This document shows, in pieces, positions 4 through 8,529 of a stretch of 11,955 nt of DNA. Source of the DNA: a virus; the UHGV virus genome UHGV-0104567; one strand, 5' to 3'. A program made the position numbers and the translations under genes. Each line of letters starts with the position of its first letter. Within the stretch, counting starts at the first letter, position 1. A model generated the notes under the pieces. That model was not told the origin of the DNA, did not search any database, and was given only the letters and a program-made list of their open reading frames with translations.

Positions 4-44
4 TGTGTACACTTTTGTGTACCCAAAAACAAAAATGTGTACCC
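4..44 (+). repeat. Three direct repeats of TGTGTAC(CC) immediately upstream of int (candidate integrase arm-type / att-proximal or int regulatory sites)
   Basis: TGTGTAC at 4-10, TGTGTACCC at 16-24 and 36-44, read directly; each preceded by a T- or A-run. Function is inferred from position only. Confidence 0.4.
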
Positions 45-49
45 ATTCA

Positions 50-1243
50 ATGATCACCGACACAAAGCTCAGGAAGGCGCTCGGCAAGAAAAGAGATGAT
101 ATCGAGATTATTTCTGATTCGCACGGGCTCAACGCCAGAATCAGCCAGGCCGGAAAAATATCATTTTTCTATCGGTATCGCTGGGCCGGTAAAGCGGTAA
201 AACTCAATGTTGGTGATTATCCTGCAATGAGTATCACCCAGGCAAGAGAGCGTCGCCAACAATTCAGAAACTGGTTAACTGAGGGACTGGATCCGCGAGA
301 GCAGGTGAAGCTGGATAAGCAGACCCGACAGGAAGCGATGTCCGTTGCCGAAGCGTTCAATTACTGGATTGAAAGGCACTGTATCGCTAACGGGCTAGTT
401 AAAGTCGATTACTATCGCCAGGTGTTTGAGAAACATATCGCCGAACCGATGAAGAATGTCAAAGTCGATAACACAGCGAAAATGCACTGGATCAACGTCT
501 TCGATTCTATAGAAAGCAGGGTGATGGCTCATTACATGCTTTCGCTGTGCAAACGGGCGTTTAGGTTCTGCGTTAACAGAAGTGTGATCGCCTCAAACCC
601 ACTCGAGGGATTACTGCCATCTGATGTCGGGCAAAAGCCTAAAAAGAGAACTCGCAGGATGGACGATGACGATCTGCGCAAAATCTATCAGTGGTTGAAA
701 AGCCATATGTCGATAGAGTCCGTTTTCCTGGTGAAATTTATTATGCTTACCGGATGCCGTACGGCTGAGATTCGACTTAGTGAGAGATCATGGTTTCGAT
801 TGGATGATAATGAGTGGGTCGTGCCTGCGGGCAGTTATAAAACTCGGGTACATATTAGAAGGGGACTCTCAGACGCCGCCGTTAACCTGGTCAGAAATCA
901 CCTCAAGAAAATAAACACCAATCACCTGGTGACTTCACAACGTAAAATTGATGGCGGGATCAAAGATTCGCCCGTTCATTCACCTGTGGCATCCAATTAC
1001 GCCCGTTCTATTTGGAATGGAACAGGTATGGCAGAGTGGTCGCTTCATGATATGAGGCGGACGATAGCCACAAATCTCTCTGAGTTAGGTTGCCCGCCGC
1101 ACGTAATTGAAAAGCTGCTCGGGCATCAGATGGTGGGGGTTATGGCGCATTACAACCTTCATGACTATATCGATGATCAGAAACACTGGCTCCGCGTTTG
1201 GCAGAGCCATCTTGAAGAGATCATCGGAGAGCCCTTCAGTTAA
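50..1243 (+). CDS. int: Tyrosine recombinase / phage integrase, P4-type (IntR-like) with N-terminal arm-binding DUF4102-like domain
   Basis: ATG at 50 gives [10 protein letters not shown]...[10 protein letters not shown], the characteristic P4-family integrase N-terminus. C-terminus has [11 protein letters not shown] ... LLGHQ ... MAHY consistent with the Arg/His/Tyr catalytic motifs. The track ORF begins at GTG 5, but the 5' extension lies in the repeat region and lacks family similarity. Confidence 0.9.
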
Positions 1244-1437
1244 TTTATCTTCTTTTTATCCTCCCACTCTTTGATTGACTCAGAGCGCCAGCGGTTAGGG
1301 TTGCCGGGCCAGTCAGGGGGTGGGAACGGGCATACGAAGCCCCGAGGCATTGTGTCTGCACTTTGCCATGACCAAAGGGTTTTGCGTGAAATTTTGTAGC
1401 GACTGGTCAGGTCTGACGTTACCAAAATATCATCCAT
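1240..1437 (-). CDS. AlpA/excisionase-like small HTH DNA-binding protein (Xis candidate)
   Basis: 65 aa from ATG at 1437 with SD GGAG 6 nt upstream; the track ORF start at 1482 is TTG. Sequence [20 protein letters not shown] ... [22 protein letters not shown] fits the AlpA/Xis HTH pattern (HTH, then F-P-x-P ... W-R-x-S-E-I-x-x-W). Stop overlaps the int stop. Confidence 0.6.
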
Positions 1438-1478
1438 AGCTCTCTCCAGTTGCCCGTTCGGGCCATTCAAAATCTTTT

Positions 1479-1721
1479 TCAACCAACCTGCCCGGGCAGG
1501 GAGCGGAGACGGCGCATGCCGGTCATCGCTGTGGCCACGTAGCTCGCCTTTCGGTTCACCACCTCCACCCAGACTTTCACGCCTTCAACCTTCACCGTAT
1601 AAGTCTCTTTCATCTTGCTTCGCCCATAGTCGCCATATGTTTGCAAGTGAGCTGCCAGCGCGATGTCGCATGCTTGGCGAGCTAAAGGTGATTGCTTACT
1701 TCCTCGATTGATCAGTCGCAT
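1479..1721 (-). CDS. Hypothetical small phage protein (80 aa)
   Basis: ATG start at 1721 with SD AAGGAG 5 nt upstream; same strand as recT and xis. No family recognised. Confidence 0.5.
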   Translation of the reverse strand: MRLINRGSKQSPLARQACDIALAAHLQTYGDYGRSKMKETYTVKVEGVKVWVEVVNRKASYVATAMTGMRRLRSLPGQVG

Positions 1722-1759: not shown

Positions 1760-2878
1760 TCAGGCCACGTATTCCGGTTTCATATCCGCCAGGGTGATGC
1801 TGAATTGATCGTGCAGTTCATCGCCTAAGTGACGCTTTGAAGATGCAAGCATGCGCTCGGCTTCAGCGAACCGTTCGGCTGCATGCGGCTCGTCGGGCTG
1901 GGGCAGGGATTTAATAGCCTCCTCAACCTTGTTGCGTGCATCCACTAGGTAATAACGCTTTACGGCTTTGTTTTTCAGCTCGGTGAATAGTGCGGATCCC
2001 AGCGTAGCTTTCGCCGTTTCAATGTCGGCACGCAGCGATTTGGCGCTATCCACGTCCTGAGCAGATTCGATGCGTTCGCGGAAATCATCGGCAAGAGAGT
2101 CGACATTTACCGACGATTCCTGTGCGCTTTGCGTGGTTGTGACGGTGTCACCTGAGATATCAGCCAGGCTAACGCGTTGCGGCGTTGGGTTGATCTCTTT
2201 TTCTGTGCGCTGTTCAATCTCATCAGGGGTGTACACACCAAGAACAACTGCAGGGCAATATAGGCGCGCCCAGTATTTGAGTGCCAGATAAGCGATCTGC
2301 TGTTTCGGGTTTGATACCCAAAGTGGAGAATTACGTGTGATTACGCTGGAGAGGAAAACAGGCTCTCCCCAGGTGATATCACTTTCACCGCGAATAACGG
2401 CACCTACCCGTACCGACAGTCCTTGTTCATCAGCACTTTCCCAACCGCGTACCATTTCTTTCTTGTCGTACGTCCCGCCACCTTTCGCAGGCTTTTTAAC
2501 GGTTATCTCGCGGCTGCTGGCACATTTCGACCAGTCGCCCTCGTACTCATAGTGAAAGCGGCCAACGATGGCGTTTGAGCTGGAGATCACCGCATTAACC
2601 AGTTGCGCTTCGTATCCCAGGACACCGTTAACCAGGTGCGTCTTTTGCGCCACGGCGTAAGGGTTCATACCCCACTGCATCGCCTGCATGATGATGGCCA
2701 TGCAGTCTGCCGGATTGCCGCGGAGGTGCTCAGGCACCGTTACGGCTGCCTGTGCCATCAACCCGGCGACAGACTGAAGCTGGGTTAAAGCCTGCACGTT
2801 GAAAATGGCATTGCTGGCTGAGATCGTGTTTGGAGTCTGCTGTTCAGCGGTTACGATATTCGTGTTTTCCATCATCAT
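1760..2878 (-). CDS. recT: RecT / Red-beta family single-strand annealing protein
   Basis: Motifs NPADCMAIIMQAMQWGMNPY and SPLWVSNPKQQIAYLALKYWARLY resemble conserved RecT/Bet segments; lies immediately downstream of the RecE-like gene as in the recET operon. Three consecutive ATGs (2878, 2875, 2872); the third has the best spacing from SD AAGGGG. Confidence 0.8.
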   Translation of the reverse strand: MMMENTNIVTAEQQTPNTISASNAIFNVQALTQLQSVAGLMAQAAVTVPEHLRGNPADCMAIIMQAMQWGMNPYAVAQKTHLVNGVLGYEAQLVNAVISSSNAIVGRFHYEYEGDWSKCASSREITVKKPAKGGGTYDKKEMVRGWESADEQGLSVRVGAVIRGESDITWGEPVFLSSVITRNSPLWVSNPKQQIAYLALKYWARLYCPAVVLGVYTPDEIEQRTEKEINPTPQRVSLADISGDTVTTTQSAQESSVNVDSLADDFRERIESAQDVDSAKSLRADIETAKATLGSALFTELKNKAVKRYYLVDARNKVEEAIKSLPQPDEPHAAERFAEAERMLASSKRHLGDELHDQFSITLADMKPEYVA

Positions 2879-2883
2879 TCCCC

Positions 2884-5793
2884 TTATGCCTGAGTACGCA
2901 GCGCTTCAAGGCGGCGCAGGTCGAAGTCGTTCAGTTCGTCGGTGTAGTCAGCAGTGATTGGCGCTGGCCATTCACCTGTGTCGAATCCGGTTGCGATATT
3001 GCGCATCGCTTTGCGGTACTCGAGCATACCCAGCTCCAGTAGTTCAGCGGATGCCTCGATGATGGCGATCCAGTGGTAGTTCTCGTCTTTGTTGACGAAA
3101 ATCCAGAAGAACTGATCCAGCGCTGCGGTTTCGCAGTACATAGCCGCGCTCAGGTGATAATCACGTTCAATAATTTCCCGGTGTAGCCTGGCGCGCAGGC
3201 TTTCCTGCTTAACATTCCACATGCTGATGGTTTTCAGGTCTGCACCTATACGCACGCCATCCAGGTCGATCTCAAGGTCAGGGCGCACACGAACTTCCAA
3301 GCCCGTCTCCTCGTCAAAACCAAAGTAGCTCACCTCAACGGCTCGGCTAGGGTGGGTCAGCAGCATGCCGGCGGTCGGGTGTGCCAGAAGCGCTTTTTGA
3401 ATATTCAGCGCGGTGCTCAGCTGCTGGCGGGTGACCAGCACTTTTCCTTCCGGGTTATCGCGCCAGGCATCCAGCAGTTCGTCGGCAAATACGGCATCTG
3501 GTTTGACTGCCTTCACGGCCTGGATCATGTCTGCTTTGGTACCGGACACTTTCAGTGGTGCCGGTTTCTGTGCTTCCTGAGCCACAAGGTCAGGGTTGAT
3601 GATTGCCAACTGCTCCAGCAGCGCGTCACGGCTGCCGCTGGTTTTAACCGGCGGCGGCAGGGTGGCGTTGTACTCTTTAATGCATGCCTTCATTGCCGTC
3701 GCCGTCTGCTTCTGGTCACCATCAATACGCTGGAAGTCAGCTGGCAGCGCCATATAGTTCTGTGCCGTTTCTTCCAGGTTAGCGCCAAGCGGAACCTGCG
3801 GCGGCAGGGTGGCGTTGTACTCTTCCAGTAACACCTTGATGTCGTCGGCAGACAGCAGCGCCGGCAGGCTGGCATTGTGCTCATCGATAAAGGCGCGCAG
3901 GGTCGCGGCCGTTGTGAATGCGCCTTCAGGGATCACCGGTTCAACGCTGAATTCTGCGTCCAGTAGTTCAGGCTGCAACGCCAGCGCATGCACCAAGTTG
4001 CCCATGTCCAGCACCGCTGAGCGCTCTTTGACGATGGTTTTCTCTACGTGGCGCGCATTGAAGTACATCAGCGAAACGCGCGCATCTTTCACCTGGGTTG
4101 AGCTGATGCCGTTGGCGGCGTGGTAAACCTCGTTTGGCAGCCCTTCATAGCGGCCTGGCTCGAAATAAGCGGGATAAACAACAGCTGGTTCGTCAGATTG
4201 CGCTTCTGGCTCGGTTTGTGCTGCAACTGGTTCGGTTTGGCTTACAGAATCGCTATTTTTGGCGACAGAATCCGTATTCTGGTCTACATCGTCCTTCTGG
4301 CTGGTATCTGACTCTTCACCAGACTCCAGACTGCTTTCGCCTGGCTGTACTTCATCACCAGCTTGTTTTTCATCACTGACAGTTTCTTGAACCTGCACAT
4401 TGCTGGTGGTCTCCGTAGCCTTTTTCGTGCCATGAGTTGCTGAGTTCTGCAGCAAAGCCGTAACGTCGAATATTCCGTTGCCGACATTTTTAACCAGTTC
4501 TTGTTCGACTTTCTGCGGTTGTGCTGCCGCTTCCTCTGCGCGGCGGCGTGCTCCTTCTTCACGCACGCGTTGCAGGTTCTCTTCGTGAGTGCAGAAGGAT
4601 TTGCGCGGAGACTCCTTACCTTCAGGTTGGGGAATTTCCTGTGCTGCGGGTTCAGCCTCATGCAACGGCAATAACTCGACCGCGGAATTGAACGCGGCTG
4701 TCATGGTCTGGTTAACAAATTCCAGGTGAGCGACAGGAGTTAAATGAATATTTTCCGGTGCGATACGTACCAGGTTAAAAATAGCCGTGCGGTTAACACC
4801 CAGAACGCCTGGCTGATTGCGCAGGATGTTGCTCCATGATTTCCATGGTTCTTCTTTTTTGGTCACGATTTCTTTAGCGCGACGAAGAATGCTGCCCGGG
4901 ATCTCGAAGTGGTTGAAGTCCATAGGCAGAAGGGCACACGCAATCTCTAAATCGAGAGTGTCCAGTGTGTGGTGTGCGTCAGGTCCACGGTCAGTGACGT
5001 AACCGCCGTCGGCATTAGTGCCGGAATCAGTACGCTGCACACTACTGATGCGATTACCGGCGGCCCATTCACGCGCCAGGATGCCACGGTCAATGTAATC
5101 AGTCGCCGCCCACATTCTGGTGAAACGGAGTACCAGCGCGAGTTCGTGACGCTTGTCCTGGCTGAACACTTTGCGAATGGCATCGGTGTAGCGCCACAGG
5201 TCTTTGGTGTCGTAACCCTTCACTTCCGGGCAGTTCTCAGCAGCTAACAGCAAGTTCTGGACGTAACTGTTATCAGTGTCCATCTCCAGCGCGCCGATAG
5301 CTTCGTACTCTTCGTGGGTTACGTGGTGGCGCAGTTCGTCGGCGGTGAACTGGGAAAGCAGTTGCTTACGAAACGGCATCTGCACTACCGGGTAGAGGGT
5401 TGAGTCGTCGTCGTGTTCGTCCAGCGTGATGCCAGCGGTTTCTGGCAGCGTTGACTCAGTAGTTATGTGACTATCAACGGTCTGAGCCGTTTTCTCGTCA
5501 GAGTTTTCAGCTGTGACTTTTGGCAGCCAGGTGCGGTCATCGTTCTGCAGTTCGTAGCGTTCGCACCAGGTGTAATCCACTGCGCCTTCTTCCGGCAGGT
5601 CGTCATATACCGGGAAATCGGTGCGGATTGGTTTGGCATAATCTTTACCGCGGCCAGTTTCTTCAATTCCGGCTTCTTCCAGTGCCACATCGAGTTGGAG
5701 ATTGGCGCGCGCTACACTTTTCGCAGTGAACCAAATCACTGCATCTTTCTTGCCAGACTTCTGACTGGCTTTTATCAGATGGAAAAATTCCAT
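2884..5793 (-). CDS. recE: Exodeoxyribonuclease VIII (RecE-like) with C-terminal PD-(D/E)XK nuclease domain
   Basis: 969 aa, ATG at 5793 with SD AGAGGA. N-terminal segments DFPVYDDLPEEGAVDYTWCERYEL and TDYIDRGILAREWAAGNRIS resemble E. coli RecE as I recall it. C-terminal RPDLEIDLDG...GADLKT fits PD-(D/E)XK motifs. Synteny with recT. Confidence 0.8.
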   Translation of the reverse strand: MEFFHLIKASQKSGKKDAVIWFTAKSVARANLQLDVALEEAGIEETGRGKDYAKPIRTDFPVYDDLPEEGAVDYTWCERYELQNDDRTWLPKVTAENSDEKTAQTVDSHITTESTLPETAGITLDEHDDDSTLYPVVQMPFRKQLLSQFTADELRHHVTHEEYEAIGALEMDTDNSYVQNLLLAAENCPEVKGYDTKDLWRYTDAIRKVFSQDKRHELALVLRFTRMWAATDYIDRGILAREWAAGNRISSVQRTDSGTNADGGYVTDRGPDAHHTLDTLDLEIACALLPMDFNHFEIPGSILRRAKEIVTKKEEPWKSWSNILRNQPGVLGVNRTAIFNLVRIAPENIHLTPVAHLEFVNQTMTAAFNSAVELLPLHEAEPAAQEIPQPEGKESPRKSFCTHEENLQRVREEGARRRAEEAAAQPQKVEQELVKNVGNGIFDVTALLQNSATHGTKKATETTSNVQVQETVSDEKQAGDEVQPGESSLESGEESDTSQKDDVDQNTDSVAKNSDSVSQTEPVAAQTEPEAQSDEPAVVYPAYFEPGRYEGLPNEVYHAANGISSTQVKDARVSLMYFNARHVEKTIVKERSAVLDMGNLVHALALQPELLDAEFSVEPVIPEGAFTTAATLRAFIDEHNASLPALLSADDIKVLLEEYNATLPPQVPLGANLEETAQNYMALPADFQRIDGDQKQTATAMKACIKEYNATLPPPVKTSGSRDALLEQLAIINPDLVAQEAQKPAPLKVSGTKADMIQAVKAVKPDAVFADELLDAWRDNPEGKVLVTRQQLSTALNIQKALLAHPTAGMLLTHPSRAVEVSYFGFDEETGLEVRVRPDLEIDLDGVRIGADLKTISMWNVKQESLRARLHREIIERDYHLSAAMYCETAALDQFFWIFVNKDENYHWIAIIEASAELLELGMLEYRKAMRNIATGFDTGEWPAPITADYTDELNDFDLRRLEALRTQA
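3651..3824 (-). repeat. Perfect 27-bp direct repeat inside recE, copies at 3651-3677 and 3798-3824, 147 bp apart (in frame)
   Basis: GCGGCGGCAGGGTGGCGTTGTACTCTT occurs twice, read directly. On the coding strand it encodes the duplicated peptide EYNATLPP, 49 codons apart. Confidence 0.85.
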
Positions 5794-5932
5794 GTGAGAT
5801 CCTCTTTTTTGGGTGTTAGAATCCCCGGACCATTGATAGCGCCCATTGGGTTAACTTTGGTTTTAATGTTGTTTCCGGTGTAACTTTGGTCGGTACCACC
5901 GGACGTAGATCCCGCCTTGCGCGGGTTTTACG

Positions 5933-6094
5933 TTAGCCTTCGTGAGCCATCTGGTCGTGCGAAGCGCAACGTTTGGAGCAATACTCTTTTTCTTTGCGCG
6001 CCAGCTGTGAGCCGTTGCGATAGAGAAGGGTGCTCTTGATTACTTCCTCCGTTTTAACCGGCTTGCCGCAATATCCGCATTTCTTGTCTAACAT
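5933..6094 (-). CDS. Small zinc-ribbon protein, 53 aa (CxxC...CxxxC); YdaE-like by position
   Basis: Not in the supplied track (below size cutoff). Hand translation: MLDKKCGYCGKPVKTEEVIKSTLLYRNGSQLARKEKEYCSKRCASHDQMAHEG. SD GGAGG 5 nt upstream of ATG, directly after the stop of the upstream gene (coupled). Confidence 0.5.
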   Translation of the reverse strand: MLDKKCGYCGKPVKTEEVIKSTLLYRNGSQLARKEKEYCSKRCASHDQMAHEG

Positions 6095-6105
6095 GACATC
6101 CTCCG

Positions 6106-6312
6106 CTAGTGGCTGAGTCCATGCCCCAGACCGTTCAGATAAACTTCAACCAGCAAATCCTTGGTGTAAGTCATTTCTACGCCGCGATGCAGATACAAAC
6201 GTCCGCGAGCGTTAGCTGATGCCGTCCAGGTTGAGTCTTTGTGTTTGACGAGCATCCCCGGCTGAACTGCGCCGCGGTTTACTGTCTGTGTACCGTAGTG
6301 CTGATGAACCAT
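6106..6312 (-). CDS. Small protein at the kil position of lambdoid/Rac early operons (68 aa; function not established)
   Basis: ATG at 6312 with SD GGAG 6 nt upstream. The track ORF extends to a GTG at 6471 with no SD. Kil-like assignment is positional only. Confidence 0.5.
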   Translation of the reverse strand: MVHQHYGTQTVNRGAVQPGMLVKHKDSTWTASANARGRLYLHRGVEMTYTKDLLVEVYLNGLGHGLSH

Positions 6313-6491
6313 GATGTACTCCAGTTTTTCTGAGTGAACTTCGCTGGTGGTGCCGTGGTGCTGATCTTCACAGTTGAGCGTTTTAACTCTGCAGTTCACC
6401 ACCGCGAAACCCACTCTTATGTGCCTGTCTTTTATCCACTTCAGGCTCGGTGGTATGCTGGTAGTTCTCACACAGCCAGCAAGGAATAACT

Positions 6492-6785
6492 ATGAAATCA
6501 GTAACTAAGCCATGTCCTATTTGTGGTGAAGATGCTTTGTCTTTTAACCAGACAAATCAGTTGGTTAACATCAAAGTAAAACCACCAACTATTCGTGAAG
6601 TTCCATCAGTGGTTTACGTTTGCGATACTCACGGATGGTTTTCACTTTCAGAACAGATAAACAGACTCGTCACATCTAATAACGACCCTGCGGCTAAGCA
6701 AAAACTGGCTGTTATTGTCAAAGAGCGATATGTGCCGGAACAGGATCAGCCGTTAGCCCTGAAACCTATTGAGTCGCTCGCATAA
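6492..6785 (+). CDS. Hypothetical zinc-ribbon protein (97 aa; CPICG ... CDTHG), opposite orientation to flanking early genes
   Basis: ATG with SD AAGGA 7 nt upstream. CxxC and CxxH pairs about 30 residues apart suggest a zinc ribbon, possibly like the MqsA N-terminal (YgiT-type) finger, but no HTH follows. Visibly more AT-rich than flanking genes. Confidence 0.6.
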   Translation: MKSVTKPCPICGEDALSFNQTNQLVNIKVKPPTIREVPSVVYVCDTHGWFSLSEQINRLVTSNNDPAAKQKLAVIVKERYVPEQDQPLALKPIESLA

Positions 6786-7035
6786 GGTCTTTTCGGCTCT
6801 CGCTGCGATATCCCAGGCGGTACATTTTCACGTAGGCTTTGCCGCGAGGAATGCCGCCTGTTTTGTTGAATCTCTGCTGGGCGCGGCGATGGTGTTTTGC
6901 TTCAGGGCTGTTTGAACCTTTCCCGCCATTCGATCGAGAACTTGGGAGTTGCATTGGCTTTTGGCGTGAATAGAATTTACGTGCCCAGCATGCTCCAAAG
7001 CCGATCATGCCTGTTTTCTTCGTATTACCTTTCAT
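6766..7035 (-). CDS. Hypothetical small basic protein (89 aa, Lys/Arg/Gly-rich)
   Basis: ATG at 7035 with SD GAGGGG 6 nt upstream. The track ORF extends to 7128. Overlaps the convergent + ORF by 20 bp. Located where the N gene would sit relative to the repressor in lambda, but no N similarity recognised. Confidence 0.4.
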   Translation of the reverse strand: MKGNTKKTGMIGFGACWARKFYSRQKPMQLPSSRSNGGKGSNSPEAKHHRRAQQRFNKTGGIPRGKAYVKMYRLGYRSESRKDLMRATQ

Positions 7036-7188
7036 CTCAATCCCCTCGTTTGCCCTTGTCGCCAGGCTGGCGGAACATTTCTTAACCTGACAACGGTGCG
7101 CGTGTTGTCGATGGAGATAACAATACAAATTTTATTTTCATCTCGCAAGTGGAATGAAATGTAAATTTTCAATTAGGGGTACAGCAAA

Positions 7189-7230: not shown

Positions 7231-7650
7231 TTACTTCTGAATGCTTTGGATGATGTTGGAAACGTCATCCTTGAGGAGATCTAGCTCTTTAAGGGTGGCT
7301 TTTGCGTGAACGATGAGGCGAAGCTTTTCTGCTTCAGGCATCTGGTTGAATAATGAGAGCAAAGCGATTTCTTTTTCATCCAGTTGCCGTGGAGGTTCAT
7401 GCATGCTCAGGTCATCATCACCTGCATCAGGCGGCATAAAAAACCAATGCTCTGGTTTACCTGTGGCAGCTGCAAGGCGTTTCAACCTTTCACCTCGAGG
7501 CGCAGACTCACCTTTAGCCCATTGCTGAACTGCCTGGGGAGTAACCATGGCTCTCCTGGCTATATCAGACATGTTCCAGCCGAATTCATCTTTGATGAGC
7601 TGAAGTCGGTAGGCGAACGCTTCATGAGGTGCTTTTTTCATGGCAATCAT
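7231..7650 (-). CDS. racR: Prophage repressor, XRE-family HTH (RacR-like)
   Basis: HTH segment WNMSDIARRAMVTPQAVQQWAKGE; divergent from a YdaS/YdaT-like pair, as for racR in Rac. Start ambiguous: in-frame ATGs at 7695, 7677, 7650 and 7641, none with a clear SD (possibly leaderless). I chose 7650 because it keeps the 14-bp palindrome intergenic and gives a typical XRE N-terminus. Confidence 0.7.
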   Translation of the reverse strand: MIAMKKAPHEAFAYRLQLIKDEFGWNMSDIARRAMVTPQAVQQWAKGESAPRGERLKRLAAATGKPEHWFFMPPDAGDDDLSMHEPPRQLDEKEIALLSLFNQMPEAEKLRLIVHAKATLKELDLLKDDVSNIIQSIQK

Positions 7651-7680
7651 TCTACAAGGTAGCCTTTCATAGTGCATTGC

Positions 7681-7716
7681 AAATATTATTTTCATTCTTG
7701 ATTGAAAATAATATTT
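7681..7716. promoter_or_regulatory. Operator-like perfect inverted repeat (14-bp arms AAATATTATTTTCA / TGAAAATAATATTT, 8-bp spacer) in the divergent repressor / cro-like control region
   Basis: Read directly. Sits within five TTTCAT repeats (7636-7641, 7665-7670, 7690-7695, 7715-7720, 7735-7740). Candidate -35 TTGATT (7698-7703) and -10 TGTAAT (7723-7728) lie upstream of the cro-like gene, whose SD is GAGG. Confidence 0.5.
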
Positions 7717-7756
7717 TCATGTTGTAATCTCATTTTTCATTCACTGAGGGCTGGAT

Positions 7757-7984
7757 ATGACCAAATCAATCAAACAGCGAGTATGCGATGTCATGACTCA
7801 AACAGAGATCGCCAAGAGTCTTGGCACAACTTCTCAAGCTGTAAGTCTATGGCTGAACCATGAGGTTCCCGCGCATCGAGTGCTCCCGATTTGCAAGTTA
7901 TTGGGATGGAAAATCACTCCACATGAAGTACGTAGTGACATTTATCCCAATCCTACAGACGGGCTGCCAAAACAGGAGTCCTGA
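7757..7984 (+). CDS. ydaS: Cro-like HTH regulator, YdaS family
   Basis: 75 aa; TEIAKSLGTTSQAVSLWLNHEVPAHRVLPICKLLGW matches the YdaS/Cro-type HTH pattern. Divergent from the repressor and followed 3 bp later by the YdaT-like gene. Confidence 0.7.
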   Translation: MTKSIKQRVCDVMTQTEIAKSLGTTSQAVSLWLNHEVPAHRVLPICKLLGWKITPHEVRSDIYPNPTDGLPKQES

Positions 7985-7986
7985 CC

Positions 7987-8529
7987 ATGCATGCCATTTC
8001 ATATCAACAAAATACCGGAATAACTCCGGTGGCGATGATAAATCGCAATCAGCCAAGTGCGGCAGATAAGCACGAACAGATCCGCGATGCCGTTCGTGCC
8101 TGGGCCGCATCACTGGATAACCAGGATGTGGTTGCCGGAATCATCGTTGAAGAATGGGAGAGACAGGGCGGTGCCGGGCTGGATTTTCCAGAAGACCTGA
8201 GCCGTAAGCGTCAGAAACTCTTCCGATGGCTCGATGGTGATACGGAGTATGCGCGCAAAAACATCAGCCAGCTGTCACCCGCGATCCTCGCCGTTCTACC
8301 GCTTGAGTTCCGTGGCCGCCTGGTACCCCAAGACTGCTTTATGACGCGTTATGCAGCGATGGAGAAGGAGATCGGCGAAGCGAAACGCGCGGTAATTCTG
8401 AGGGCGCCACAGCATCAGCTGGTGAAAGAGGTGAGAGAGGGCATTGAACACCTGCTGGCGCTTCTGCCAGGGGAGGCTGTTGTTCAGGTTCTGAGTGGTC
8501 TCGCGGTAATGAGCCCGGGCGTAATGTGA
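7987..8529 (+). CDS. ydaT: YdaT-family protein (historically annotated as toxin YdaT; CII-like regulator by analogy)
   Basis: 180 aa; segment EEWERQGGAGLDFPEDLSRKRQKLFRWLDGDTEYARKNISQLSPAILAVLPLEFRGRL fits my recollection of the YdaT family. SD AGGAG 8 nt upstream of the ATG. Confidence 0.7.
   Translation: MHAISYQQNTGITPVAMINRNQPSAADKHEQIRDAVRAWAASLDNQDVVAGIIVEEWERQGGAGLDFPEDLSRKRQKLFRWLDGDTEYARKNISQLSPAILAVLPLEFRGRLVPQDCFMTRYAAMEKEIGEAKRAVILRAPQHQLVKEVREGIEHLLALLPGEAVVQVLSGLAVMSPGVM

What the first reader, a model, noticed from the sequence alone, without database searches (positions are those of the whole stretch)
6313..6785. Oppositely oriented, AT-rich zinc-ribbon gene inside the leftward early operon (moron candidate)
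Seen: a 97-aa ORF with a good SD on the plus strand, flanked on both sides by minus-strand early genes; its 5' half is visibly AT-richer than recE/recT; it carries CPICG and CDTHG pairs about 30 residues apart. It diverges from the kil-position gene across about 180 bp (6313-6491). Inference: an independently transcribed accessory gene (moron). The equivalent lambda interval carries sieB/ral/rex-type exclusion genes, so a superinfection-exclusion, regulatory or anti-defence role is plausible but unsupported by sequence alone.
Basis: partly seen in the sequence, partly recalled or inferred. Interest (0 to 1): 0.5.

Follow-up and report, generated by a model that had tools for sequence, protein, structure and literature searches.

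The report
Zinc-ribbon gene in prophage sieB slot
The 97-codon gene is real, but it is one half of a rare, always-linked pair of small prophage genes sitting exactly where phages lambda and P22 keep their superinfection-exclusion gene sieB, behind the same conserved antisense-RNA leader, so it is most likely a lysogen-expressed accessory (exclusion-type) gene of unknown biochemistry.

Summary
In detail: window 6492-6785 (+) encodes a 97-aa protein (A) under purifying selection (dN/dS 0.16), with invariant C8/C11/C44/H47 and a confident AF2 model (pLDDT 90). That model matches nothing significantly in the PDB or BFVD. MqsA/YgiT and Lar membership are not supported.

A is not a lone moron. It is half of a 627-bp cassette. 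The other half is an 89-aa very basic protein (B, 6766-7035, -), convergent with a 20-bp overlap. The partner was present in all 14 A-bearing and all 24 intact-B-bearing IMG/VR loci. Only 2 of 5426 complete E. coli genomes carry the cassette.

The roughly 65 nt upstream of A (6423-6487) is the most conserved part. It is the element found upstream of lambda and P22 sieB, and its complement is the 3' part of the published P22 sas antisense RNA. The same block heads at least 27 unrelated cargo families, including SieB, e14 YmfI and rac10.

Repressor operators at 7121-7173 make B the first gene of the leftward early operon.

Best reading: A is a lysogen-expressed cargo in the sieB slot, shut off by antisense and convergent pL transcription, and probably exclusion-related. 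B would be its early-lytic partner. The function is inferred, not shown.

The parts
6423..6487 (.). Conserved sieB-type leader, or sas-type block. Helix 1 is 6423-6427 with 6442-6446. Helix 2 is 6456-6461 with 6476-6481. Read on the minus strand, the block corresponds to the 3' part of P22 sas antisense RNA.
   Evidence: Mean pairwise identity is 90% over 63 nt in 9 loci whose A proteins are only 39-87% identical. The block occurs in 1734 of 5426 E. coli genomes and 137 phage records. It lies at lambda 34397-34440, upstream of sieB. It matches the published P22 sas sequence (PMC13397905). Helix 2 covaries: 3 of 6 pairs change on both sides, score 0.184 against 0.048 for shuffles, 0 of 500 shuffles as high.
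6432..6459 (+). Candidate promoter of A. The -35 is TTATCC at 6432-6437 (TTAACC in most relatives), followed by a 16-nt spacer. The extended -10 is TGg-TATGCT at 6451-6459. The predicted start is near 6466. This is an inference.
   Evidence: Read directly from the sequence and from its conservation. It was not reported by the consensus scan, which needs 9 of 12 matches. In P22 the annotated P_sieB lies further downstream, so the placement differs.
6492..6785 (+). Gene A: a 97-aa soluble Cys3-His zinc-ribbon protein (phrog_31519). Four beta-strands with a long beta2-beta3 hairpin, two helices, and a conserved C-terminal P-I-E-S-L tail.
6766..6785 (.). 20-bp convergent overlap of the 3' ends of A and B.
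   Evidence: The overlap is exactly 20 bp in 15 of 17 loci, in 14 of 14 loci, and in 23 further loci.
6766..7035 (-). Gene B: an 89-aa very basic protein (pI 11.5, 22 K+R), phrog_29236. It is predicted helical at low confidence. It is the first gene downstream of the leftward early promoter. Its ribosome site, GAGGGG, is the complement of 7042-7047.
   Evidence: (dN/dS 0.17).
6418..7044 (.). The dispensable cassette as a whole: block, A and B. It is absent from otherwise 98-99% identical prophages.
7121..7173 (-). Leftward operator/promoter region (OL/PL equivalent). Two operator copies, at 7121-7141 and 7152-7173, match those between the repressor and cro (7675-7742).
   Evidence: Repeat families D1, I2-I6. 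A terminator-like hairpin for the repressor gene lies at 7208-7189 (-).
6106..6312 (-). The kil gene, the next pL-operon gene downstream of the cassette. Leftward transcripts must cross A antisense to reach it.
   Evidence: phrog_294 E=2e-34 and NF008465. No minus-strand terminator-like site was found between 6313 and 6766.

Best explanation
A is a genuine small zinc-ribbon protein gene. Together with the convergent 89-aa basic-protein gene B, it forms a two-gene accessory cassette in a Rac-like prophage. The cassette occupies the slot where lambda and P22 have sieB (rightward) facing N/24 (the first leftward early gene).

Proposed working, with each step marked:
1. In the lysogen the repressor holds the operators at 7121-7173, so B, kil and recET are silent. 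Status: operators shown, repression inferred.
2. A is transcribed from its own constitutive promoter inside the conserved leader. Its transcript runs antisense into B. Status: inferred; the K-12 counterparts ymfI-ymfJ and sieB-ydaF are reported as convergent overlapping transcripts.
3. On induction or superinfection pL fires and B is made first. Leftward transcription then crosses A antisense and yields a sas-like RNA. The conserved two-hairpin 3' part of that RNA is the block at 6423-6487, and its 5' part covers A's ribosome site and start codon, so A synthesis is switched off. Status: inferred by homology with P22 sas.
4. A is therefore a prophage-expressed effector or sensor, most probably of superinfection exclusion or abortive infection. 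B is its early-lytic partner, most simply a counter-factor that lets the phage's own lytic growth escape A, as Esc does for SieB. Status: inferred from position, regulation and strict A-B linkage.

The biochemical target of A is unknown. The variable beta2-beta3 hairpin is the likely specificity element.
For: Gene reality: constant length, dN/dS 0.16 for A and 0.17 for B against 1.4-1.9 in the shifted frames, and an AF2 model at pLDDT 90, pTM 0.79.

Cassette: a 627-bp indel relative to otherwise identical prophages.

Linkage:
- The partner is present in all 17 loci first fetched, including remote homologues at 39-48% identity.
- It is present in all 14 A-bearing and all 24 intact-B-bearing IMG/VR loci.
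- In the same slot generally, partner families are shuffled among cargo families, which makes the A-B linkage stand out.

Slot homology: lambda sieB (+) abuts N (-), and P22 sieB faces gene 24.

Leader:
- The block is identical in pattern to lambda and P22 and equals the 3' part of P22 sas (PMC13397905).
- It is the most conserved part of the cassette, at 90% identity against 48% at third codon positions.
- Helix 2 covaries.

Regulation:
- Operators sit upstream of B only.
- sas switches SieB translation (PMC12197685, PMC7067206).
- In K-12, ymfI-ymfJ and sieB-ydaF are listed as convergent excludons (PMC12288877).
- ymfJ, but hardly ymfI, is induced late in the SOS response (PMC11002266).

Divergence: A diverges faster than B, with mean identity 52% against 65%, and A lower than B in 45 of 55 pairs. 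The variation is concentrated in the beta-hairpin.
Against: - No transcript data exist for this element.
- The proposed promoter matches only 7-8 of 12 consensus positions plus an extended TG, and the scan did not call it.
- The hairpins are not thermodynamically unusual, z = -0.02.
- In P22 the sieB promoter lies downstream of the shared block, so promoter homology is not established.
- A has no internal start for an Esc-like product.
- A distant A-like zinc ribbon (C15; hhalign 90.9% over the core only) sits in the slot without B.
- A and B allele identities correlate only weakly, r = 0.49.
- A-B linkage could partly reflect the lack of any recombination-prone homology between two overlapping genes.
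Confidence: 0.4

Rival explanations
1. A is a regulator of the prophage's own development rather than an exclusion factor. On this reading it is a zinc-ribbon nucleic-acid-binding or RNA-polymerase-binding protein that tunes pL transcription, induction or the lysis-lysogeny choice, with B as a co-regulator.
Confidence: 0.2
2. A and B form a toxin-antidote (addiction or abortive-infection) pair in the opposite sense. B is a toxic basic protein made when pL fires, and A, or the A mRNA running antisense across B, is the antidote kept on in the lysogen.
For: Co-inheritance is strict, with a fixed 20-bp convergent overlap. No plus-strand terminator lies between A and B, so the A transcript probably covers B antisense; the only weak terminator-like sites are at 6875-6888 and 7059-7073. 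B is small, basic and predicted partly disordered.
Against: B is co-transcribed with kil and recET as part of normal lytic development, so an unopposed toxin there would harm the phage. Neither protein hits any toxin or antitoxin family. The architecture is not that of type II modules. B is more conserved than A, which is unusual for a toxin whose antidote must track it.
Confidence: 0.15
3. A is an anti-defence protein of the Lar/Ral restriction-alleviation type, or another inhibitor of host immunity.
For: Weak hits of the first zinc knuckle to Lar models: PF14354 E=0.016, TIGR03655 E=0.018, phrog_599 E=0.2. Two 'restriction alleviation' entries appear among the non-significant BFVD hits. Rac-type prophages do carry lar in the early left arm; this rests on my own knowledge.
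Against: Scores are far below the curated cut-offs, 15.9 against 28.6 bits and 15.3 against 39.6 bits, and cover only about 20 residues. A is antisense to pL and is predicted to be turned off when the phage grows lytically, the opposite of what an anti-restriction gene needs. Lambda and P22 ral lie elsewhere, co-oriented with pL.
Confidence: 0.08
4. A is an MqsA/YgiT-type zinc-ribbon antitoxin.
For: The CxxC ... Cxx[CH] spacing of about 30 residues, followed by a helix, resembles the MqsA N-terminal domain. This is a pattern only, and rests on my own knowledge.
Confidence: 0.02

Closest known systems
P22/lambda sieB-esc-sas superinfection-exclusion locus (Ranade & Poteete 1993, as cited in PMC12197685, PMC7067206 and PMC13397905)
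   Same: The chromosomal slot and orientation match: a rightward gene between the early-left genes and the first pL gene, convergent with that gene. The conserved upstream element is the same, and its complement is the 3' part of sas RNA. By analogy, the gene would be expressed in the lysogen and shut off by antisense RNA during lytic growth.
   Different: The protein is unrelated: a 97-aa soluble zinc ribbon against a SieB of 184 codons in lambda and 192 in P22. There is no internal in-frame start for an Esc-like product. The ATG lies 38 nt after the shared GGTGG, against about 75 nt in P22, so the promoter must sit elsewhere. The partner is B, with a 20-bp overlap, not N/24.
E. coli K-12 e14 ymfI/ymfJ and Rac sieB/ydaF convergent pairs ('excludons', PMC12288877); Rac-SA53 rac10/rac11; SfII gp36 with an unannotated 68-aa ORF
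   Same: The leader block is the same; the K-12 e14 copy is 93.9% identical over 66 nt. The gene pairs are convergent with overlapping 3' ends (overlaps of 63, 39 and 39 bp) and lie between the early-left genes and the repressor. The slot-2 gene ymfJ is induced late in the SOS response.
   Different: All the proteins are unrelated to A and B. None of them has a known function either.
MqsA/YgiT zinc-ribbon antitoxins
   Same: Two metal-ligand pairs about 30 residues apart in a beta-rich N-terminal region.
   Different: There is no profile, hhalign or fold match, no HTH domain and no toxin partner.
Lar/Ral restriction-alleviation proteins (PF14354, TIGR03655)
   Same: A small phage zinc-knuckle protein of Rac-type prophages, with sub-threshold hits to the first CxxC knuckle.
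   Different: The scores are below the cut-offs, only about 20 residues align, and the orientation is opposite to the early operon.
CarD/CdnL/Mfd RNA-polymerase-interacting (Tudor-like) domains

Membership tests
SieB/Esc/sas exclusion locus | Protein homologous to SieB | tested here: not met
   A matches only phrog_31519 (unknown function). There is no SieB hit in Pfam, PHROGs or NCBIfam. In IMG/VR the SieB cargo family (C1) is a separate cluster.
SieB/Esc/sas exclusion locus | Rightward gene convergent with the first pL gene, between the early-left genes and the immunity region | tested here: met
   The window order is kil(-) / A(+) / B(-) / OL-PL / repressor(-). Lambda has sieB(+)/N(-) and P22 has sieB/24.
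SieB/Esc/sas exclusion locus | Upstream leader homologous to the P_sieB/sas region | tested here: met
   GCCTGTCTTTTAWCCACWTCAGGC matches in lambda (0 mismatches) and in all A loci. Alignment with P22 and with the published sas sequence agrees.
SieB/Esc/sas exclusion locus | Internal in-frame start giving an Esc-like truncated inhibitor | tested here: not met
   A has a single Met, at residue 1, and no internal ATG in frame (translation).
SieB/Esc/sas exclusion locus | Expression from the prophage, an antisense RNA made during lytic growth, and exclusion of superinfecting phage | not testable with these tools
   This needs RNA-seq or northern blots and plating assays. The only indirect support is the K-12 analogues.
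MqsA/YgiT-type zinc-ribbon antitoxin | Match to YgiT/MqsA profiles or to the MqsA N-domain fold | tested here: not met
MqsA/YgiT-type zinc-ribbon antitoxin | C-terminal XRE-type HTH domain and an adjacent MqsR-type toxin | tested here: not met
   The AF2 model shows only two short helices after the ribbon. The neighbours are kil and B, and B has no family hit.
Lar/Ral restriction alleviation (PF14354 / TIGR03655) | Score above the curated family cut-off over the whole domain | tested here: not met
   15.9 bits against a cut-off of 28.6, and 15.3 against 39.6. Only residues 5-25 align.
Convergent overlapping gene pair ('excludon'-type) | Convergent genes whose 3' ends overlap, conserved across relatives | tested here: met
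   The 20-bp overlap is present in nearly all loci.
Convergent overlapping gene pair ('excludon'-type) | Overlapping antisense transcripts with mutually exclusive expression | not testable with these tools
   There are no transcript data for this element. No intrinsic terminator lies between the genes on either strand.
Lambda N-type antiterminator (considered for B) | N-family homology, with matching nutL and nutR boxB sites | tested here: not met
   B has no Pfam hit. The candidate element at 7052-7075 is single-copy in the window and is retained in prophages that lack B. There is no room for a nutR between cro (ends 7984) and the next gene (starts 7987).
Known anti-phage defence systems (PADLOC-DB) | Match of A or B to any defence-system protein model | tested here: not met
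   Zero families at E<=10.

The most novel reading that the evidence does not exclude
A and B may be a new two-protein superinfection-exclusion or abortive-infection module built on a zinc-ribbon fold with no known relative. More broadly, the sas-type leader may be a portable regulatory socket. Lambdoid prophages of Enterobacteriaceae would use it to express at least 25 unrelated small cargo genes in the lysogen and to silence them by antisense and convergent pL transcription in lytic growth. Many of these cargos carry their own convergent, overlapping early-lytic partner. That would amount to a general, so far undescribed class of 'lysogen effector + early-lytic antidote' cassettes, of which SieB/Esc is only the first known case.
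Probability: 0.2. Interest if true: 0.7.

Novelty: new variant of a known kind. Interest (0 to 1): 0.45.

Why it matters
If the reading is right, it assigns a regulatory logic to an orphan protein pair: on in the lysogen, off by sas-like antisense and convergent pL transcription. It also gives a testable role, exclusion with a self-escape partner.

It further shows that the sieB promoter/sas region, studied only in P22, is a widely shared leader. The block is in about a third of complete E. coli genomes and precedes dozens of unrelated cargo genes, among them the long-unexplained K-12 genes ymfI/ymfJ. That would give a simple sequence handle, a 31-nt conserved block, for mining prophage-expressed accessory or defence genes. 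It would also give a set of small two-gene cassettes that can be tested directly by plating assays.

If A turns out to be merely one more hypothetical moron, the finding is still a useful annotation of a rare cassette.

Tried and rejected
- MqsA/YgiT relation: rejected. No profile hits, hhalign probability 1.6%, no fold hit.
- Lar/Ral membership: rejected. Sub-threshold, single knuckle only.
- Known defence proteins: none in PADLOC.
- Relatives with solved structures, by sequence: none for A or B.
- Deep HMM search of 1.84 billion representatives: only four real relatives.
- Known RNA family for the leader: Rfam has none.
- Thermodynamic support for the hairpins: none, z = -0.02. Only covariation supports helix 2.
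- A small ORF in the leader: rejected. The start codons are in different registers and there are 1-nt indels.
- LexA box or sigma-54 promoter in the leader: examined by eye; the spacing does not fit.
- Direct repeat TGTCTTTTA(A/T)CCA at 6426-6438 and 6538-6550: rejected as functional, because synonymous changes destroy it in other loci.
- B as an N-type antiterminator: rejected.
- Flanking direct repeats or a mobility signature at the cassette ends: none beyond a 4-nt microhomology.
- Literature search for the accessions and PHROG ids: nothing.
- Published coordinate for lambda tL1, to test whether the block is that terminator: not found.
- AF2 of B: low confidence, pLDDT 56, so no fold search was run on it.

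Full report
**Setting.** The window is the left arm and immunity region of a Rac-like lambdoid prophage. In order it contains:
- integrase, 5-1243 (+)
- excisionase, 1240-1482 (-)
- DUF4060 protein, 1479-1721 (-)
- recT, 1760-2878 (-)
- recE, 2884-5793 (-)
- ydaE, 5933-6094 (-)
- kil, 6106-6312 (-)
- the target ORF, 6492-6785 (+)
- an 89-aa ORF, 6766-7035 (-)
- an HTH repressor, 7231-7695 (-)
- a cro/YdaS-like gene, 7757-7984 (+)
- a YdaT/cII-like gene, 7987-8529 (+)

**Observation.**
- The ORF is 97 aa with an AAGGA ribosome site 6 nt before the ATG.
- Minus-strand genes flank it on both sides.
- The gap to kil is 179 bp.
- The 5' half is 38.8% GC, against 54% for recE and recT.
- The motifs CPIC (residues 8-11) and CDTH (residues 44-47) are there.

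The ORF is a real gene. A search of 5.8 billion proteins found 22 clusters, all of 97 aa (or 109 aa with an upstream start), 57-97% identical and confined to Enterobacteriaceae. Pairwise dN/dS has a median of 0.16 in frame, against 1.4-1.9 in the shifted frames. C8, C11, C44, H47 and the following G-W-F are invariant, as is a C-terminal P-I-E-S-L tail. In a subfamily with a shorter beta-hairpin, H47 is replaced by Asp.

**Structure and family.** AlphaFold2 with the 23-sequence alignment gives a confident model: pLDDT 90, pTM 0.79. It has four strands with a long beta2-beta3 hairpin, the two metal knuckles at the hairpin bases, two helices and an extended tail. The model has no significant neighbour:
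- Foldseek against the PDB and BFVD gives nothing at E <= 0.001.
- A profile search of PDB sequences gives nothing.
- A profile HMM search of 1.84 billion representatives finds only four real relatives.
- Only 2 of 185,579 species-representative genomes and 2 of 5426 complete E. coli genomes carry the gene.

Pfam and NCBIfam give only sub-threshold hits of the first CxxC knuckle to Lar models. PHROGs places A in phrog_31519, of unknown function. PADLOC gives nothing.

**It is a pair, not a single gene.**
- Comparison with E. coli genomes shows about thirty prophages with the same recE-ydaE-kil arm at 98-99% identity that lack a 627-bp block, window 6418-7044. That block holds both the 97-aa gene (A) and the convergent 89-aa gene (B).
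- B is also a real gene, with dN/dS 0.17 and 32 clusters, nearly all of 89 aa. It is very basic, with pI 11.5. It has its own PHROG (29236, unknown) and no Pfam hit. Its predicted structure is of low confidence, pLDDT 56.
- In all 17 complete loci first fetched (Kosakonia, Atlantibacter, Klebsiella, Citrobacter, Phytobacter, E. coli and metagenomes), A is paired with B. The overlap is 20 bp in 15 of them and 56 or 68 bp in the other two.
- Remote A homologues at 39-48% identity still have a B homologue.
- In IMG/VR, 14 of 14 A-bearing loci have B. All 24 B-bearing loci in which B is intact have an A-family partner with the 20-bp overlap.
- A diverges faster than B. Mean pairwise identity is 52% against 65%, A is lower than B in 45 of 55 pairs, and the correlation is only r = 0.49. 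A alleles are therefore reshuffled against B alleles, yet never, in this sample, replaced by another gene.

**The upstream region is the key.**
- The roughly 65 nt before A (6423-6487) is the most conserved part of the cassette. Mean pairwise identity is 90%, against 48% at third codon positions and 72-81% at first and second positions. It cannot be coding, because the start codons are in different registers and there are 1-nt indels.
- A search with this block showed that it is not private to the cassette. It occurs in 1734 of 5426 E. coli genomes and in 137 phage records.
- In K-12 it precedes e14 ymfI, which is convergent with ymfJ and overlaps it.
- In Rac-SA53 it precedes rac10, facing rac11. 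In SfII it precedes gp36, facing an unannotated 68-aa ORF. In Aeromonas phage pAEv1818 it precedes a pair that includes a YmfJ homologue.
- In lambda it lies at 34397-34440, immediately upstream of sieB.
- Lambda sieB (+) abuts N (-). P22 sieB faces gene 24, the N homologue. So A occupies the sieB slot and B occupies the N slot.
- The published sequence of the P22 antisense RNA sas (127 nt; PMC13397905, Table 2) ends with ...ACCACCGAGCCUGACGUGGUUAAAAGACAGGC. That is the reverse complement of the block.
- According to the reviews read (PMC12197685, PMC7067206), sas pairs with sieB mRNA and switches translation from SieB to its inhibitor Esc.
- The block contains two inverted repeats. The first, 6423-6427 with 6442-6446, never varies. 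The second, 6456-6461 with 6476-6481, covaries across lineages: TGCTGG/CCAGCA, TACTGG/CCAGTA, TCTTGG/CCAAGA, and TCTCG/CGAGA in lambda and P22. Three of its six pairs change on both sides, with a covariation score of 0.184 against 0.048 in shuffles, 0 of 500 as high.
- Free base substitution in a stem argues for an RNA helix rather than a protein operator. Thermodynamically the fold is unremarkable, z = -0.02.

**The promoter question.** In P22 the annotated P_sieB lies downstream of the shared block, and the sieB ATG is about 75 nt after GGTGG. In the window the ATG is only 38 nt after GGTGG. In the e14/Rac-type leaders the position right after GGTGG reads TATGCT, TATACT or TATCTT, preceded by TGG, and TTAACC (TTATCC here) lies 16 nt upstream. 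That suggests an extended -10 promoter, with the -35 at 6432-6437 and the -10 at 6454-6459. This is my inference. The consensus scan did not call it.

**The leftward promoter.** Repeat analysis finds the repressor's operator motif both between the repressor and cro (7675-7742) and at 7121-7141 and 7152-7173. The repressor gene has a terminator-like hairpin at 7208-7189. B, which starts at 7035, is therefore the first gene of the repressor-controlled leftward operon. Leftward transcripts must cross A antisense to reach kil and recET, because no minus-strand terminator-like site lies between them. A's own upstream region carries no operator copy.

In K-12, ymfI-ymfJ and sieB-ydaF are both listed as convergent excludons from RNA-seq (PMC12288877). 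The N-slot gene ymfJ is induced late in the SOS response (log2 fold change 4-4.8), while ymfI changes little (PMC11002266). Both results fit this layout.

**The slot is a cargo hotspot.** In the 112 that have an ORF after the block, I found 27 cargo families and 37 partner families.
- The largest cargo family is SieB, with 29 loci.
- Many small cargos have a dedicated convergent, overlapping partner. Examples are an 81-aa cargo with its partner in 15 of 15 loci, SfII gp36 in 5 of 5, and rac10 in 3 of 3.
- Partner families are also shared between different cargos, so the two slots can be shuffled. This makes the unbroken A-B linkage more meaningful.
- One cargo family (C15, 91 aa) is a probable distant relative of A's zinc-ribbon core (hhalign 90.9%, E = 1e-6, core only) and has no B partner. 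The ribbon can therefore exist without B. A's helices and tail, which are absent from C15, may be the part that relates to B.

**Interpretation.**
- Shown: the gene is real; the pair is an evolutionary unit; it is dispensable and rare; it sits in the sieB and N slots; its leader is homologous to the sieB/sas region; and operators precede B only.
- Inferred: A is expressed from its own promoter in the lysogen. It is silenced by sas-like antisense RNA and convergent pL transcription during lytic growth. It acts as an exclusion or abortive-infection effector. B is its early-lytic partner or antidote.
- Confidence: about 0.8 for the regulatory architecture, about 0.35 for the exclusion role, and 0.4 for the combined statement.
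- Rivals: a developmental regulator (0.2), a toxin-antidote pair with B as the toxin (0.15), an anti-defence protein (0.08) and an MqsA-type antitoxin (0.02).

**Novelty and score.** The proteins are orphans with a fold that matches nothing known, but the kind of element is known: a prophage-expressed gene in the sieB slot under sas-type control. I rate it a new variant of a known kind, with interest 0.45. The more general observation may be the more valuable lead. A 31-nt conserved leader marks a hypervariable cargo slot in about a third of E. coli genomes, often with convergent overlapping gene pairs.

Noticed in passing
window 6423-6487; loci L040-L159 (IMG/VR): The conserved sas-type block precedes at least 27 unrelated cargo families in 112 viral contigs. 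These include SieB, YmfI, rac10, SfII gp36 and several other small zinc-ribbon proteins. Many have a convergent, overlapping partner ORF. The block occurs in 1734 of 5426 complete E. coli genomes.
   Followed up: partly
L003, L004, L008-L010, L013, L014, L030, L034 (between the B homologue and the repressor): Related prophages carry variable defence-like genes on the repressor strand, in the position of lambda rexAB. Examples are HipA-like + DUF3037, DUF6932, DUF6414, Ser/Thr kinase + PP2C phosphatase, and an SDH-type protease. The window has nothing there.
   Followed up: no
window 7052-7075 (-): The semi-conserved element TTCCGCCAGCCTGGCGACAAGGGC lies between the leftward promoter and B. It is single-copy in the window, present in most relatives, and retained in prophages that lack the cassette. 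Its role is unknown; it does not look like a nut site for B.
   Followed up: partly
window 7121-7173 and 7675-7742: Operator-like repeats of the form TGAAAAT-n-TATTTTCA define the OL and OR regions of a non-S24 (RacR/DicA-like, 154-aa) repressor. Two copies lie on the left and three or four on the right.
   Followed up: partly
window 5835-5931 (+): A sub-threshold Rfam match to the Hfq-binding sRNA isrB (28.6 bits against a gathering score of 35, E = 0.013), in the recE-ydaE intergenic region and ending at a terminator-like hairpin (5911-5925).
   Followed up: no
L030 3239-3514, L033 3251-3538, L184 1754-2041, P0056: A subfamily of A has a shorter beta2-beta3 hairpin (91-95 aa) and C-x2-D in place of C-x2-H at the second metal knuckle. 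It is still paired with B with the 20-bp overlap.
   Followed up: partly
L037 1501-1565 (Salmonella phage SopEPhi, P2-like): A 79%-identical match to the block lies in a P2-like phage, between a fil-like and a cII-like gene and so outside a lambdoid context. It may be chance or a transferred element.
   Followed up: no
L014 4227-4544, L019 438-728: In two lineages B's stop codon is lost or shifted. B is then extended to 105 or 96 aa, and the overlap with A grows to 68 or 56 bp without disrupting A.
   Followed up: no
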